Positions 2,311-9,993 of a stretch of DNA of 64,000 nucleotides are shown one piece after another; within the stretch, counting starts at the first letter, position 1; every line of letters begins with the position of its first letter. Source of the stretch: a virus; the IMG/VR virus record IMGVR_UViG_3300046513_000134, positions 1 to 64,000 of that record; one strand, written 5' to 3'. A program made the translations under genes and the position numbers. The notes under the pieces are model-generated. The model worked only from the letters and a program-made list of their open reading frames with translations. It had not been told where the DNA came from and made no database searches.

Positions 2311-3223
2311 TGTCCAAGTGCTCGGATGGGAGCTGGATCATGTAGTTGATCGTGGCCCGCACCGAAGCGGCGAAGTCGTATTCCGTGGTCATCCCGACGC
2401 TGTCCCAATAGTCCATATTGGCGACGAGATTGACCCCCTCCTTTTCCCCATTGCGCATCTTGACATTGTTGATCCGCACCGGGGGTTCTCCGAGGACGCG
2501 GGCCACTTCGTCGCGGATGACGACGGCCGCATCATTGCAAGATATTGCACGGCCAGAGCCGAGGTCCACGATCTTCTCGGACCGGCCGAGGTGGCGGATG
2601 GCGTGCACCGTGAAGCGGGCCAGATCGCGCGTGTCAATCGGGTCGATGGTCTGGCTGCCGTCGCCGTAGACTTCGAGGTCCTTGCCGTACATCGCCAGCA
2701 TGATCATCATCGGCAGGAACTTGCGGACCGGGTAGAGATGCTGGTACGGGCCGACCGCGTTGAGCCAGCGCACCGTCGCCACTTCCATACCGTATTGCTG
2801 CTGGTAGAGCTGGCCGAGCAGTTCCCCCGAGTGCTTGGTCAGGGTGTAGCTGTTCTCGTAGTAGCCGTCGAAGTGCGGCTTGGCTACGTTGTAGACGCGC
2901 TTGACCTTCGCATGGCGGCAGGCGTCGAGGACGTTATTCGCACCAACGATGTTGACGTCACAGGCGAGGGACGAGATTGGAATGAGTTCAGATGTGCCGA
3001 GGATACCGGCCAAGTGGTAGACTTCATCACAGCCCTCGAAAGCAGCCAGCAGGGAGTTCAGGTTGCGGATGTCGGTGTAGATGAACTTGGTGTTCTCGCC
3101 CATCGACGCCTGTGGCGGAACCACGTCCACGATGACGATCTCCGTCCCGGGCTCCTTGTTCTGTAGGTACAGCATAAGGTTCGTCCCTATGAAACCAGAT
3201 CCGCCTGTGATTGCGACGCGCAT
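2279..3223 (-). CDS. NAD-dependent nucleotide-sugar epimerase/dehydratase (extended SDR)
   Basis: ITGGSGFIG Rossmann motif, YHLAG, YTLTK (YxxxK), VYGDGSQT. Confidence 0.92.
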   Translation of the reverse strand: MRVAITGGSGFIGTNLMLYLQNKEPGTEIVIVDVVPPQASMGENTKFIYTDIRNLNSLLAAFEGCDEVYHLAGILGTSELIPISSLACDVNIVGANNVLDACRHAKVKRVYNVAKPHFDGYYENSYTLTKHSGELLGQLYQQQYGMEVATVRWLNAVGPYQHLYPVRKFLPMMIMLAMYGKDLEVYGDGSQTIDPIDTRDLARFTVHAIRHLGRSEKIVDLGSGRAISCNDAAVVIRDEVARVLGEPPVRINNVKMRNGEKEGVNLVANMDYWDSVGMTTEYDFAASVRATINYMIQLPSEHLDNAMRFYSHKV

Positions 3224-4806: not shown

Positions 4807-5100
4807 TTATCGCACGCCCAAGATGCGGTCGGCAGCCAGTTTCGAGCGGCTGTGGGCATCGGTAAAGATGGAGTTCTGGCGGTTCATCGCCTCTTTCTTG
4901 TTCTCGGCCGTGATCGCGTCCAGCTCGTAGCCCAGAACCTGAAGGATGGTTTCCACGATCTCAATCGCGACGCCTGCATGGCCGTCCTCCAGCTTGCGGA
5001 GGGTCGAGCGATTGATCTTGGCATACGACGCCAGACGGCGTTGCGACATGCCCTGCGCCTCGCGCAGTCCCTTAATCAGTTGGCCCCAAAAGCTTGCCAT
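4807..5100 (-). CDS. XRE-family HTH protein
   Basis: IKGLREAQGMSQRRLASYAKINRSTLRKLEDG. Confidence 0.85.
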   Translation of the reverse strand: MASFWGQLIKGLREAQGMSQRRLASYAKINRSTLRKLEDGHAGVAIEIVETILQVLGYELDAITAENKKEAMNRQNSIFTDAHSRSKLAADRILGVR

Positions 5101-5599
5101 GTTCTGCCCCGGTTTCGCCTAGATCGATAACGTACCGGTAAGTGGCCAGCGAGGCGTGGCTGCGGTCGAGAATGTCGATCAGGACGTCATCATCCGCAGG
5201 CACGTCGATAAAGAGTTCGGAGCAGCCGAACCGTTCCAAGTAGGCTTTCGCTTCCTTAAAAAGCATACCGAAGACGCCAAGTTTGCGACTGCTTGGCTCG
5301 ACGTAGATCAAGGTGATCTTCGCCGCTTCGGCAAACCCAAGAACGGTGTAGGTCATGAGCCCAATCACTTCGCCCTTGCCGGTGACCGCGTAGAATGCCG
5401 CCGACGAGTTTGCCACGGTAGACAGAAACTGGTGATCGATTGACGATAGGACACCCTGAGCCACGGCTTCAGCGAACAGCCCTTTTGCGTCGCTGGTAAG
5501 CACGTTTGCTGCGTGTCTGATCGTCACTTCAAGCACCGAGACCTCCATGTCCTGCTGTGCAATAAATTGCACCGCATTCCGGTTTTGCATAATGAGCAA
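5072..5599 (-). CDS. GNAT family acetyltransferase
   Basis: ITLIYVEPSSRKLGVFGMLF acetyl-CoA motif A; start uncertain. Confidence 0.8.
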   Translation of the reverse strand: MLIMQNRNAVQFIAQQDMEVSVLEVTIRHAANVLTSDAKGLFAEAVAQGVLSSIDHQFLSTVANSSAAFYAVTGKGEVIGLMTYTVLGFAEAAKITLIYVEPSSRKLGVFGMLFKEAKAYLERFGCSELFIDVPADDDVLIDILDRSHASLATYRYVIDLGETGAEHGKLLGPTD

Positions 5600-6168: not shown

Positions 6169-6648
6169 TCACCGCCGCGATGAAAAGGAGAGCACCAAGC
6201 GCTTCGATGGCTTTGAAGGCGTAGGCTTCGGCTCGGGCACGGGGGCTGCTACGATCCGTGGTGCCGGATAGTCGATCCCAAGCGACGCCTTGGCCAGCAG
6301 ATTGGCCGCGCCCCTGATCCGGTCGGGCATCTTGTCCCATTTCAGGGCGAAGCCGGTTCCAGCTTTCAACTGCTTTCTGTCCACGTAGCTCTTGTGCCAA
6401 TGGTTTATCCTCGAAAAGTTTTCGTCCAACTCGAAGCAGATGCGATCGTACATGGCGTCCGACAGAATGGAAACGTCGCGGACGTAGTAGAGATAGCTTG
6501 CCATCAAATACCACGGAACCAGCAGGTTCTCGGAGCGCTTGATATCGGATCGAGCCATGTCATCAAGGTTGGCGGCTCGGCCCTCCGTGTCCGGTGTCGG
6601 CGCTGGAGGGGCTACGGGGGTAACGCGCGGCTTAAAGATAAGTTTCAC
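6169..6648 (-). CDS. Stand-alone NAD+-dependent DNA ligase domain Ia-like protein
   Basis: YLMASYLYYVRDVSILSDAMYDRICFEL matches the LigA subdomain Ia pattern YY..D...SD..YD.L..EL. Confidence 0.75.
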   Translation of the reverse strand: MKLIFKPRVTPVAPPAPTPDTEGRAANLDDMARSDIKRSENLLVPWYLMASYLYYVRDVSILSDAMYDRICFELDENFSRINHWHKSYVDRKQLKAGTGFALKWDKMPDRIRGAANLLAKASLGIDYPAPRIVAAPVPEPKPTPSKPSKRLVLSFSSRR

Positions 6649-8502: not shown

Positions 8503-8617
8503 TAGGTCACTCCTTGAAGTAGAGGGGATTGGTATAAGTCATATTGTCTAGGTAGCAACCCGAAGTCAATCAGGTCGAGCAGATTTATCTGAGGGCTGTG
8601 CCTGAAAAGCAAGCGGG

Positions 8618-8738
8618 GGCCACCGGACTAGCCTGCCGGGGACCCCCTTTTGATAAACGGGAGTTGAACCCGTTCCGATCGATCTCAAATCGATTGCTCC
8701 ACCGTAGAGCTTTTATCGAGCACGTCCGTCTTTCGGCC
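8618..8738 (-). ncRNA. Y RNA-like element enclosing a complete degenerate tRNA cloverleaf (8649-8719, anticodon-position TGA)
   Basis: 5' GGCCGAAAG (GNCGAANG motif); closing helices GGCC/GGCC and GGAC/GTCC; inner fold TCGATAA-AA-GCTC TACGGTG GAGC-A-ATCGA TTTGAGA TCGAT-CGGA-ACGGG TTCAACT CCCGT-TTATCAA-A; no CCA. Confidence 0.65.
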
Positions 8739-8743
8739 TGTCC

Positions 8744-8885
8744 CGCCCCCGCGAGTTTGAAGGGACCCACGCTCTACCACTGAGCTAACCCCCATCAGTC
8801 CAAACGTAAGGTGTTTGGCTGGGGGTGCTGGGATCGAACCAGCGCGCAAGGCTTAAGGTTTTGGAGGCGACTATCCTATTCGACG
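8744..8885 (-). ncRNA. YrlA-like Y RNA (circularly permuted tRNA mimic)
   Basis: 5' CGTCGAATAGGAT, then T arm GCTGG TTCGATC CCAGC (8827-8843), acceptor stem ACCCCCA/TGGGGGT closed by hairpin CCAAAC/GTTTGG, then D arm GCTC AGTGGTA GAGC (8771-8785); 3' GTCC-C-TTC...GGCG pairs back to the 5' end. Confidence 0.75.
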
Positions 8886-8904
8886 TCTGAGGTTGTTAAT
8901 CTTG

Positions 8905-9098
8905 CAGGGCAAAACAGCAAAGTTAACACCTTAGTTCATGACACCTGCGGGTTCAGTGTCCCGCTTCGTAAGTTTAAATTTGGCCCTGTGGGAGGGTGCG
9001 GAGGGAGGCCCTGATGGGTCTCACCTCAATTCGAGATCGGGGAGGCTGGCCAGCCTCTGGCGTTTCTTGCCCAGAACGCCCCGCGTTGCCGCGACCCA
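8905..9098 (-). ncRNA. Structured RNA 5' domains (multibranch junction, long bulged duplex, pseudoknot)
   Basis: TGGGTC/GACCCA encloses CGCG-GCAA-CGCG, GGCGTT/AACGCC and GAGGCT/AGCCTC; CAGGGC[C]AAA/TTTGCCCTG encloses GCGGG/CCCGC, whose ACAC loop can pair with downstream GTGT. Confidence 0.5.
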
Positions 9099-9112
9099 AT
9101 GGCGGTGTTCTA

Positions 9113-9859
9113 TCAGAGCGCCAGTAGCGTGGCAATCAGTTTCGCGCTGATTTCCTCGTTACCCACGTCCTGCAAGTTGGCGCGCATCCGTGCCTTCTTG
9201 GTGGCCGAGATCAGCTTGTCGAGGTTGCCGAGCACCGTAGCCTTCTTCAGCGGCGTCCACATGCCGGAGCGGTGGATCGTGGCGATCTTGGCGACGTTCT
9301 TATCGACCGTGTATTCTTTGATCTGCGCCGGGTGCTTGTCGGTCGCCTCGTAGAGGACCTTGTGCTCGTTGAGCTTTTCAGTCTTCAACTGTTCGGTCTG
9401 GGCCGAAACGAAGAAGCCTTCTCCGGCACCATCGTCCTTGTTCCAGACCGCGCCCGGGGCTAGCGTCGGGATCGCTGCGAGCATTTCCCGCAGACCCGAG
9501 AGCTTCTGTTCCAGACCGAGCAGGTAGATGCCCGGCAGGTCCTTGGCCAGCGTCGTGCCGTCCACGATCAGGTCAGCCTTGGCCGACTGGTTGGCGACGT
9601 CCTTCTGCAGTACCGCGTCGAGATACTTGCCGAAGTGCTTCAGCGCGTAGTCGAGACGGGCATCGACGCTGGTGACCACCGGCTTGGTTTCCGAGGTGTT
9701 TTCGCCCGAGCGGCTGTCCTCGAAATAGGTGGTGGTGCGCGTCTGACCAAGAAAGTGGTCAGGCTTCTTGGCGAAAGTGTTCGCCGCGTCCGCAATCATA
9801 GCTGCCGACGTCTTGAGCAGGTCCTGCTCGACTGCGAGAAGTTCGTGAAGTTTCGCCAC
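9113..9859 (-). CDS. Conserved uncharacterised alpha-helical protein (248 aa) upstream of the ncRNA cluster
   Basis: GTG start after GGAGG; KLHELLAVE...LLGLEQKL...IPTL...EATDKHPAQI...SG...KKARMRAN resembles an uncharacterised phage/actinobacterial family (recalled, not searched). Confidence 0.85.
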   Translation of the reverse strand: MAKLHELLAVEQDLLKTSAAMIADAANTFAKKPDHFLGQTRTTTYFEDSRSGENTSETKPVVTSVDARLDYALKHFGKYLDAVLQKDVANQSAKADLIVDGTTLAKDLPGIYLLGLEQKLSGLREMLAAIPTLAPGAVWNKDDGAGEGFFVSAQTEQLKTEKLNEHKVLYEATDKHPAQIKEYTVDKNVAKIATIHRSGMWTPLKKATVLGNLDKLISATKKARMRANLQDVGNEEISAKLIATLLAL

Positions 9860-9993
9860 CGTTGATCCTCCGTGATCCTGATTGTGTGTCGATGAGAGAG
9901 AAGTATTTGGAGAGCAGCCGTTAATCAAGAGGGTTTTTTCGGTTTTGAACTATATTATGCGAAATCCCTGATTTTTAACGCAAAAAGGCGGTT

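What the first reader, a model, noticed from the sequence alone, without database searches (positions are those of the whole stretch)
8744..8885. Circularly permuted tRNA mimic (T arm, closed acceptor stem, D arm) with YrlA-type ends
Seen on the minus strand: CGTCGAATAGGAT, a Trp-like anticodon-loop remnant CTCCAAA, a canonical T arm (8827-8843), and ACCCCCA-G-CCA pairing with a downstream TGGGGGT (8788-8794). The CCA is sequestered in a CCAAAC/GTTTGG hairpin, followed by a canonical D arm, and the 3' end pairs back to the 5' end around a large bulge. This order is the established hallmark of YrlA. The retained G-CCA and CTCCAAA suggest descent from tRNA-Trp (inference). Processing at the internal CCA could expose a chargeable end.
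Basis: partly seen in the sequence, partly recalled or inferred. Interest (0 to 1): 0.8.

Follow-up and report, generated by a model that had tools for sequence, protein, structure and literature searches.

The report
Phage tRNA-mimic RNA beside DUF7873
The flagged stretch is a real, conserved RNA shaped like a transfer RNA with its two halves swapped and no anticodon loop. It follows one unknown protein gene (DUF7873) in many phages and bacteria rather than Ro60, so it probably belongs to an undescribed RNA-protein unit.

Summary
On the minus strand, 8886-8722 holds, in order, a T arm, a 7-nt acceptor 3' strand, G-CCA, a hairpin, the acceptor 5' strand and a D arm, closed by pairing of the two ends. 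The window is a complete 100.5-kb Rhizobium-type phage.

My covariance model of the core finds the same element just downstream of a DUF7873 gene, on the same strand:
- 74 of 80 viral loci
- 53 of 80 bacterial loci

Structure evidence:
- 98.6% of cells pair, against 68% when shuffled.
- N-CCA follows the acceptor strand in 62 of 72 distinct phage copies.

It has YrlA architecture but is not shown to be a Ro60 RNA:
- The phage has no TROVE gene, and 22 of 40 DUF7873-bearing bacterial genomes have none.
- The Ro-type 5' box seen in this window is lost in its two closest relatives.
- In genomes that carry both systems, the Ro60-adjacent RNAs have their own 5' box.

The proposed tRNA-Trp descent is not conserved. 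The most likely reading is the tRNA-like core of a DUF7873-partnered RNA that is processed at the acceptor end; binding and processing are inferred. Earlier notes of this scan report the same pair on other DNA (138 notes, at least 105 genomes). I found no paper on it.

The parts
9113..9859 (-). DUF7873 gene (248 aa; the ORF runs on to a TTG at 9928)
   Evidence: Pfam PF25283, E 7.6e-74. A 248-aa cluster representative is 100% identical. 1352 relatives, nearly all about 248 aa.
8893..9112 (-). Structured leader between the gene and the tRNA-like core, with no credible ORF. It includes CAGGGC[C]AAA 8988-8979, which can pair with UUUGCCCUG 8913-8905.
   Evidence: Conserved blocks in the three-phage alignment. 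A UUG(A/C)CCC..AG box recurs upstream of the core in distant loci. No minus-strand terminator lies between gene and core. The helix was read by eye only.
8871..8886 (-). 5' end of the closing helix: ACGUC 8886-8882 and the RRUAGG box (AAUAGG 8880-8875)
   Evidence: RRUAGG is kept in all three phages (AAUAGG, AGUAGG, GGUAGG). RGUAR occurs in 32 of 67 5' flanks, against 15.8 in shuffles.
8863..8870 (-). Closing stem, 5' strand UCGCCUCC
   Evidence: Pairs with 8750-8743. Y1_11 has CUGCGGUC/GAUCGUGG, with compensatory changes at three pairs (read).
8853..8862 (-). Internal loop, 5' side (AAAACCUUAA)
   Evidence: Read from the sequence; unpaired in the three-phage consensus fold.
8848..8852 (-). 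Anticodon-stem equivalent, 3' strand (GCCUU, tRNA positions 39-43)
   Evidence: Pairs with UGGGU 8769-8765. Y1_11 has AUUGG/CCAAU. Family mean 4.19 of 5 pairs against 2.65 in the control.
8844..8847 (-). Variable loop GCGC
   Evidence: Read from the sequence. The final C can form the G15-C48 Levitt pair.
8827..8843 (-). T arm GCUGG-UUCGAUC-CCAGC
   Evidence: Four of 5 pairs covary; 99.2% of cells pair.
8816..8826 (-). Acceptor 3' strand ACCCCCA, discriminator G 8819, CCA 8818-8816
   Evidence: All 7 pairs covary. N-CCA is present in 62 of 72 distinct copies.
8795..8815 (-). Rest of the CCA hairpin (loop ACCUUAC, GUUUGG 8805-8800) and linker ACUGA
   Evidence: The hairpin is conserved in the Rhizobium-phage subgroup and in L011-type loci. 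Most other members have a short A/U-rich linker ending YUAU.
8786..8794 (-). Acceptor 5' strand UGGGGGU plus U8 A9
8770..8785 (-). D arm GCUC-AGUGGUA-GAGC plus G26
   Evidence: Invariant in the seed. 99% of cells pair, and 4 of 4 pairs covary across the family.
8765..8769 (-). Anticodon-stem equivalent, 5' strand UGGGU
8722..8764 (-). 3' side of the closing helix: loop CCCUUCAAACUCGC, stem GGGGGCGG 8750-8743, GCCGAAAG 8737-8730, GACGU 8726-8722
   Evidence: YGAAAR occurs in 26 of 67 3' flanks, against 7.6 in shuffles. Flank duplex median z -1.8.
8649..8719 (-). Normal-order 71-nt cloverleaf directly abutting the mimic (anticodon UGA, short variable loop, U1-A72, C2.A71, no encoded CCA)
   Evidence: Rfam tRNA 50.8 bits; ARAGORN. 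The same body carries UGU in TM16 and UAU in Y1_11. A cloverleaf starts 42-62 nt after the core in 26 of 67 loci.
8605..8647 (-). Terminal hairpin GGGGG..CCCCC with loop AGGCUA, then GCUUGCUUUU
   Evidence: Terminator-like site. An AGGN(U/A)A loop on a stem is found in 38 of 67 loci by a crude detector that gives some false calls; no shuffle control was run for the stem-capped form, and the bare motif is not enriched (54 of 67 against 46.3 shuffled).

Best explanation
8886-8722 (minus strand) is the tRNA-like core of a longer non-coding RNA, running from about 9112 to 8605, that is transcribed behind the DUF7873 gene. It belongs to a large family of such RNAs that travels with DUF7873 in phages and bacteria.

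The core folds as a tRNA elbow plus a 7-bp acceptor stem. The anticodon loop is replaced by a long closing helix formed by the RNA's own 5' and 3' sides.

Inferred steps:
- RNase P cuts 5' of the acceptor 5' strand (8795/8794), and 3' trimming exposes G-CCA (8816). This would give a two-piece, tRNA-like RNA, as happens with M. smegmatis YrlA.
- The conserved closing helix (RGUAR opposite YGAAAR) is the docking site for DUF7873.
- The particle acts on or imitates tRNA during infection. It works like Ro60-YrlA without needing Ro60.
For: - Structure and covariation.
- Linkage to DUF7873, same strand and downstream: 74 of 80 viral loci, median about 160 nt; 53 of 80 bacterial loci from many phyla, plus 2 upstream.
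- In the 80 bacterial loci no other protein-coding neighbour is conserved; the largest flanking cluster covers 4 loci. The gene and the RNA therefore move as a pair.
- Ro60 is not required. There is none in this complete phage, none in 4 of 5 cultured DUF7873 phages, and none in 22 of 40 DUF7873 genomes. Those 22 include ten large isolate genomes that still carry the RNA.
- Within-genome controls. In Nonomuraea aridisoli and Rhizobium phage Y65 the Ro60-adjacent modules carry a 5' box (GGGUCGAA.. or GUUGCGA..) that the DUF7873-adjacent RNA lacks.
- N-CCA is conserved even where the linker forms no hairpin. This fits RNase P recognition of the 3' RCCA end (established knowledge) and the M. smegmatis precedent (PMC4201824).
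- DUF7873 sits inside the tRNA gene clusters of cultured phages.
Against: - There are no transcript, processing or binding data.
- DUF7873 has no recognisable fold or RNA-binding domain.
- Gene adjacency can reflect shared transcription only.
- TROVE is present in 18 of 40 DUF7873 genomes, far above the roughly 5% of bacteria quoted in PMC4201824. It lies 5-8 kb away on the same strand in two Nonomuraea genomes and in phage Y65, so a functional tie to Ro60 is not excluded.
- R. etli, of the host genus, has Ro60 (PMC4201824).
- Actinobacterial DUF7873-linked copies have no CCA, so an exposed CCA is not universal.
Confidence: 0.6

Rival explanations
1. It is an ordinary YrlA-class Y RNA that uses the host's Ro60 (Rsr). 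The phage supplies the RNA, and DUF7873 is only a neighbour or an accessory factor.
For: - Full-length alignment to Rfam YrlA.
- True Ro60-adjacent modules in phage Y65 also score only 34-37 bits, so a score below the gathering threshold does not exclude membership.
- The window has GUCGAAU at 8884-8878, identical to the core of the Nonomuraea Ro box.
- R. etli has Ro60 and a YrlA (PMC4201824).
- TROVE is enriched among DUF7873 genomes.
Against: - The box is not kept in TM16 or Y1_11.
- 22 of 40 DUF7873 genomes have no TROVE gene, and ten of them are large isolate genomes that still carry the RNA.
- Genomes with both systems keep two distinct RNA classes.
- The RNA follows DUF7873, not Ro60, in 74 of 80 viral loci.
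Confidence: 0.15
2. It is a cis-acting element with no partner of its own: a tRNA-shaped 3' block that stabilises the DUF7873 mRNA and gives RNase P a site to separate the mRNA, the spacer and the downstream tRNA.
For: - No terminator lies between gene and RNA.
- A cloverleaf abuts the 3' end in 26 of 67 loci.
- The module lies in tRNA operons.
- The 7-bp acceptor and CCA suit RNase P.
Against: - A processing signal would not need the conserved closing helix, its motifs, the anticodon-stem equivalent or all the tertiary-contact bases.
- The pair is kept across phyla with no other neighbour.
Confidence: 0.12
3. It is a free-standing tRNA decoy. The acceptor/CCA mimic, together with the neighbouring cloverleaf whose anticodon varies, soaks up host tRNA-targeting defence enzymes. 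DUF7873 is not part of the particle.
For: - Phages counter tRNA-cleaving defences with their own tRNAs (general knowledge; I did not check the literature here).
- The anticodon of the adjoining cloverleaf differs between close relatives (UGA, UGU, UAU).
- CCA is conserved.
Against: - The family is also chromosomal in many bacteria with no phage context visible within the 2.5-kb flanks fetched.
- There is no link to any known defence or anti-defence family.
- This reading leaves the tie to DUF7873 unexplained.
Confidence: 0.08
4. It is a permuted tRNA-Trp gene whose transcript is circularised or re-joined and matured into a decoding tRNA, as in the red alga Cyanidioschyzon.
For: ARAGORN, with introns allowed, reads the rotated sequence as tRNA-Trp(CCA). 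G73 and CUCCAAA fit tRNA-Trp (from memory).
Against: - The call needs a 70-nt 'intron'; without introns nothing is found.
- The loop is one strand of a covarying helix.
- It is not conserved in TM16 (C at position 33) or Y1_11.
- No family member shows an anticodon loop at the junction.
- Bacteria lack the splicing endonuclease used for permuted tRNAs (established knowledge).
Confidence: 0.02

Closest known systems
YrlA (Y RNA-like A; Rfam RF02553; Chen et al. 2014, PMC4201824), above all the M. smegmatis form
   Same: Same order: T arm, closed acceptor-like stem, D arm, with the ends paired in place of an anticodon arm. It has tRNA tertiary nucleotides and a 7-bp acceptor, and the M. smegmatis RNA is cut by RNase P and ends in CCA. 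The family also occurs in phages.
   Different: YrlA is defined by a Ro60 gene within 4 kb and a 5' GNCGAAN0-1G box. Here there is no Ro60 in the phage and the box is not conserved. The constant neighbour is DUF7873, the CCA is encoded, and the closing helix carries other motifs (RGUAR / YGAAAR). It scores 29.4 bits against a gathering score of 69.
Two-piece tmRNA from circularly permuted ssrA genes (alphaproteobacteria and others)
   Same: Permuted gene order: T arm, acceptor 3' strand with encoded CCA, an intervening segment that is removed, then the acceptor 5' strand. Local hits to this junction were found (beta_tmRNA 18.7 bits, tmRNA_permuted 14.8 bits).
   Different: It has a full canonical D arm and no tag reading frame or pseudoknots. 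ARAGORN finds no tmRNA, and the scores are far below the gathering thresholds.
Circularly permuted tRNA genes of Cyanidioschyzon merolae and some green algae
   Same: The 3' half precedes the 5' half, and the acceptor ends are joined by a linker that is processed away.
   Different: Those mature into decoding tRNAs through a bulge-helix-bulge junction and a circular intermediate. Here there is no anticodon loop and no such machinery.
Viral tRNA-like structures (e.g. tymovirus 3' TLS)
   Same: Virus-encoded tRNA mimicry with a CCA-type end that is recognised by tRNA enzymes.
   Different: Those are 3' ends of RNA genomes with pseudoknotted acceptors. This is a DNA-phage non-coding RNA with true acceptor, T and D arms.

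Membership tests
YrlA (RF02553) | Order T arm, closed acceptor-like stem, D arm, with tRNA-like conserved nucleotides | tested here: met
   U8, A14, G18, G19, G53-C61, U54, U55, C56 and A58 are all present.
YrlA (RF02553) | Reaches Rfam's gathering score | tested here: not met
   29.4 bits against 69. Ro60-adjacent modules of phage Y65 also fail at 34-37 bits, so this is weak evidence either way.
YrlA (RF02553) | GNCGAAN0-1G box near the 5' end (Chen et al. 2014) | tested here: not met
   The window has GUCGAA-UA-G, with a two-base spacer. TM16 has GUCAAGUAG and Y1_11 has none. An exact GCCGAAAG lies on the 3' side instead (8737-8730).
YrlA (RF02553) | Encoded within about 4 kb of a Ro60/TROVE gene on the same strand | tested here: not met
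   There is no TROVE match in the complete 100,506-base phage record.
YrlA (RF02553) | Bound by Ro60/Rsr | not testable with these tools
   Needs immunoprecipitation. Host Ro60 status was not tested; only R. etli is on record (PMC4201824).
DUF7873-linked tRNA-mimic RNA (unnamed; not in Rfam 15) | Lies just downstream of a DUF7873 gene on the same strand | tested here: met
   The gene is at 9113-9859 and the core hit at 8854-8764. The same holds in 74 of 80 viral and 53 of 80 bacterial loci.
DUF7873-linked tRNA-mimic RNA (unnamed; not in Rfam 15) | Permuted core with a 7-bp acceptor and, in the phage branch, an encoded N-CCA | tested here: met
   101.6 bits on R1, though the window is one of the seed sequences. 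G-CCA is at 8819-8816, and N-CCA occurs in 62 of 72 copies.
DUF7873-linked tRNA-mimic RNA (unnamed; not in Rfam 15) | Closing helix with RGUAR on the 5' strand and YGAAAR on the 3' strand | tested here: inconclusive
   The window has AAUAGG (A where most copies have G) and CGAAAG. The motifs are enriched in the family but not universal (32 of 67 and 26 of 67).
Permuted tRNA gene (decoding) | The rotated sequence gives a cloverleaf with a conserved 7-nt anticodon loop | tested here: not met
   Found only with a 70-nt intron allowed, and not conserved in relatives.
Two-piece tmRNA | tmRNA detection, tag reading frame and degenerate D arm | tested here: not met
   ARAGORN finds none. Rfam scores are 14.8-18.7 bits against gathering scores of 47-84.

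The most novel reading that the evidence does not exclude
DUF7873 and this RNA form a widespread, Ro60-independent ribonucleoprotein of phages and bacteria. Its RNA is cut by RNase P into a two-piece tRNA mimic with a free CCA end, and it intervenes in tRNA metabolism during infection. It might, for example, decoy or recruit enzymes that recognise the tRNA elbow and acceptor end, alongside a neighbouring cloverleaf whose anticodon changes between close relatives.
Probability: 0.35. Interest if true: 0.85.

Novelty: new variant of a known kind. Interest (0 to 1): 0.7.

Why it matters
YrlA-type tRNA mimics are known only as partners of Ro60, and their function is still unclear. A second, larger branch tied to a different 248-aa protein of unknown fold would show that the inside-out tRNA is a reusable RNA scaffold rather than a Ro60 peculiarity.

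This branch sits inside phage tRNA clusters and is present in cultured phages of Klebsiella, Vibrio, Ralstonia, Gordonia and Rhizobium. That gives tractable systems in which to ask what such mimics do. It also gives the first functional lead for Pfam DUF7873, which has more than 1,300 members.

Tried and rejected
- Exact-pattern scans for the window's core: viral contigs gave 0 hits and metagenome contigs gave 0. A D-arm pattern gave two unrelated contigs.
- DUF7873 identity, nothing usable from any source:
  - PHROGs, 0 hits.
  - PDB by sequence and by profile, 0 hits.
  - Foldseek against PDB, E at best 0.02.
  - VIA-align wide search, best Z 6.9, on helical bundles only.
  - BFVD, one weak uncharacterised hit.
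  - NCBIfam, noise only.
  - PADLOC, 0 hits.
  - Protein atlas, only DUF7873 clusters.
- Single-sequence MFE z-score: -0.19, uninformative.
- A sigma-70-like site at 8899-8870 would start transcription inside the closing helix, so I set it aside as chance.
- Conserved protein neighbours in the 80 bacterial loci: none. A GNAT gene next to the Nonomuraea locus is not conserved.
- TROVE on Rhizobium plasmids: no hit. This says nothing about chromosomes, and I could not reach a Rhizobium genome handle.
- Literature:
  - 'DUF7873' is in 0 papers.
  - 'YrlA' with 'phage' finds only Ro60-linked work.
  - 'permuted tRNA' with 'phage' finds nothing relevant.

Full report
**What is in the sequence.**
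- T arm: 8843-8827.
- Acceptor 3' strand ACCCCCA: 8826-8820.
- Discriminator G: 8819. CCA: 8818-8816.
- Hairpin CCAAAC/GUUUGG: down to 8800. Linker ACUGA follows.
- Acceptor 5' strand UGGGGGU: 8794-8788. U8 A9: 8787-8786.
- D arm: 8785-8771. G26: 8770.

A stem equivalent to the anticodon stem (GCCUU 8852-8848 with UGGGU 8769-8765) leads into an internal loop. An 8-bp closing stem follows (UCGCCUCC 8870-8863 with GGGGGCGG 8750-8743). Further motifs extend to about 8886 and 8722. All nucleotides that build the tRNA elbow are present.

**Standard scans.** At its gathering thresholds Rfam reports only a 71-nt tRNA at 8649-8719. In a permissive search of 1 kb the YrlA model aligns over its full length at 8740-8870. 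It scores 29.4 bits against a gathering score of 69, with E 4e-4. There are local hits to the acceptor junction of permuted tmRNAs. ARAGORN finds no tmRNA.

**Context.** The window is part of a complete 100,506-base virus record, and nearly all long ORFs lie on the minus strand. Its nearest cultured relatives are Rhizobium phages RHph_TM16 and RHph_Y1_11.

The gene just upstream (9113-9859) is a DUF7873 protein (PF25283, E 7.6e-74). The core T arm-to-D arm stretch is almost invariant in the three phages. The T stem, the anticodon-like stem and the closing stem change by compensatory substitutions.

**A large family tied to DUF7873.** DUF7873 has at least 1352 relatives, nearly all about 248 aa. 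Six viral contigs whose proteins are 46-49% identical all carry a YrlA-model hit of 37-43 bits right after the gene.

I built a covariance model (R1) of the core from seven sequences. Its hits fall as follows.
- Viral loci: 74 of 80 DUF7873 loci have a hit after the gene on the same strand, at a median distance of about 160 nt. Two of the six misses end at or 176 nt after the gene.
- Bacterial and archaeal loci: 53 of 80 have a hit downstream and 2 have one upstream. They come from many phyla, and actinomycetes often carry two tandem modules.

The structure is supported by covariation on the aligned hits.
- 98.6% of cells pair, against 68.2% in shuffles and 36-48% with partners slid.
- Double-sided changes number 368 against 94.
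- All seven acceptor pairs covary, so the hits are not tRNA dimers.

The anticodon-like stem averages 4.19 of 5 pairs, against 2.65 when the 3' flanks are swapped between loci. The flanks pair beyond it, with a median duplex z of -1.8. They are enriched for RGUAR on the 5' side (32 of 67 against 15.8) and YGAAAR on the 3' side (26 of 67 against 7.6).

N-CCA follows the 7-nt strand in 62 of 72 distinct phage copies. This holds even where the linker is a short A/U-rich run that cannot pair with it.

**Is it a Ro60 RNA?** Chen et al. (PMC4201824) define YrlA by three features. These are the T/acceptor/D order, a 5' GNCGAAN0-1G box, and a Ro60 gene within 4 kb on the same strand. The first is met. 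The other two are not.
- The phage has no TROVE gene.
- The window's GUCGAA-UA-G has one spacer base too many. It is GUCAAGUAG in TM16 and absent in Y1_11.

Ro60 is also dispensable for the family as a whole.
- Of 40 bacterial genomes with DUF7873, 22 have no TROVE match. They include ten large isolate genomes of Nonomuraea, Nocardia, Planotetraspora, Acrocarpospora and Actinocorallia that still carry the RNA.
- Four of five cultured DUF7873 phages lack TROVE.

Two genomes that carry both systems serve as internal controls. In Nonomuraea aridisoli, and in Rhizobium phage RHph_Y65, the modules just upstream of Ro60 each carry a box (GGGUCGAA.. or GUUGCGA..). The DUF7873-adjacent RNA has none.

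Three cautions remain.
- The Y65 Ro60-adjacent modules also score only 34-37 bits on Rfam YrlA, so the low score does not discriminate.
- One of those modules also has U-CCA.
- TROVE in 18 of 40 genomes is well above the roughly 5% background. It lies 5-8 kb away on the same strand in two Nonomuraea genomes and in Y65. The two systems may therefore be functionally related.

**tRNA-Trp descent.** The rotated sequence is called tRNA-Trp(CCA) by ARAGORN only when a 70-nt intron is allowed. Without introns nothing is found. CUCCAAA is the 5' strand of the covarying closing stem. TM16 has C at the would-be U33, and Y1_11 has no such loop. The discriminator is U, G, A or C across the family. I treat the resemblance as chance.

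**Surroundings.**
- No minus-strand terminator separates the gene from the RNA.
- A sigma-70-like site precedes the gene at 9978-9949.
- A terminator-like hairpin follows at 8647-8615.

The 71-nt cloverleaf abuts the mimic. Its body is the same in the three phages, but its anticodon is UGA, UGU or UAU. In 26 of 67 loci a type-I cloverleaf starts 42-62 nt after the core. Its acceptor stem is usually A/U-rich. Its anticodons include Ser, Leu and Tyr ones without the long variable arm, and some irregular loops. In other loci only a D arm plus an anticodon arm remains, or nothing.

In cultured phages DUF7873 sits inside tRNA gene clusters and is followed by an unannotated gap of 250-510 nt. In the 80 bacterial loci no other protein-coding neighbour is conserved. 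The RNA is the only constant companion of the gene.

**Mechanism.** Shown:
- a conserved, covarying, permuted tRNA-like fold with an encoded CCA;
- tight linkage to DUF7873;
- Ro60 is not required.

Inferred:
- RNase P cleavage at 8795/8794 and trimming to CCA at 8816. The grounds are the 7-bp acceptor, the conserved RCCA that bacterial RNase P recognises, and the M. smegmatis precedent.
- DUF7873 docking on the closing helix.
- A tRNA-related role.

DUF7873 gives a confident model (pLDDT 87.6) of four long helices and a long beta-hairpin sheet. No match was found in PDB, BFVD, PHROGs, NCBIfam or PADLOC.

**Novelty.** I found no paper on DUF7873 or on Ro60-independent YrlA-like RNAs. One possibly relevant paper, Burroughs and Aravind 2016, is not held. 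Earlier notes of this scan describe the same gene-RNA pair on other DNA, and my own tests agree with them. I class it as a new variant of a known kind.

Noticed in passing
window 8649-8719 (-); L001 4297-4367; L002 4130-4205: The cloverleaf after the mimic keeps one body but carries anticodon UGA, UGU or UAU in three close phages. Across the family these cloverleaves are all type I (69-78 nt), even with Ser, Leu or Tyr anticodons. They mostly start with a base other than G, and those I read end in CAAA rather than CCA. They may be a second tRNA mimic rather than decoding tRNAs.
   Followed up: partly
window 8605-8647 (-): The terminal hairpin has a loop AGGCUA. An AGGN(U/A)A loop on a G/C stem recurs in distant phages, for example GGAAGGUUAUCC. 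That is unusual for a plain terminator.
   Followed up: partly
window 8893-9112 (-): The leader between DUF7873 and the core is structured and has no ORF. CAGGGC[C]AAA (8988-8979) can pair with UUUGCCCUG (8913-8905). A UUG(A/C)CCC..AG box recurs upstream of the core in loci from other phyla, so it is more likely RNA than promoter.
   Followed up: partly
L179 5392-6580 (Rhizobium phage RHph_Y65): A 1.2-kb unannotated gap upstream of the phage's TROVE gene holds eight GUUGCGA boxes, five of them just 5' of a detected tRNA-like module. This looks like a tandem Y-RNA array.
   Followed up: partly
L175 3018-3155 (Klebsiella phage vB_KpM_FBKp24): The record annotates 'tRNA-Sup-TTA' at 3018-3097, overlapping the permuted tRNA-like core (R1 hit 3059-3155). 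The suppressor tRNA call may be an artefact of the mimic.
   Followed up: no
L169 and L171 (two Nonomuraea genomes): Ro60 with its own boxed Y RNAs lies 5.6-8 kb upstream of the DUF7873-RNA pair on the same strand. NUDIX and DUF5997 genes lie between them in L169.
   Followed up: partly
window 6169-6648 (-) and 5072-5599 (-): There is a stand-alone NAD-dependent DNA-ligase N-terminal (Nlig-Ia) domain protein of 159 aa, and a GNAT acetyltransferase a few kb downstream. Both have counterparts in the related Rhizobium phages.
   Followed up: no
L172 183-208; L173 61-86: Two soil metagenome contigs carry the same tRNA 5' half (GGGGGUUAGCUCAGUGGUAGAGCG) followed by a long unrelated insert. This may be an intron-containing tRNA.
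   Followed up: no
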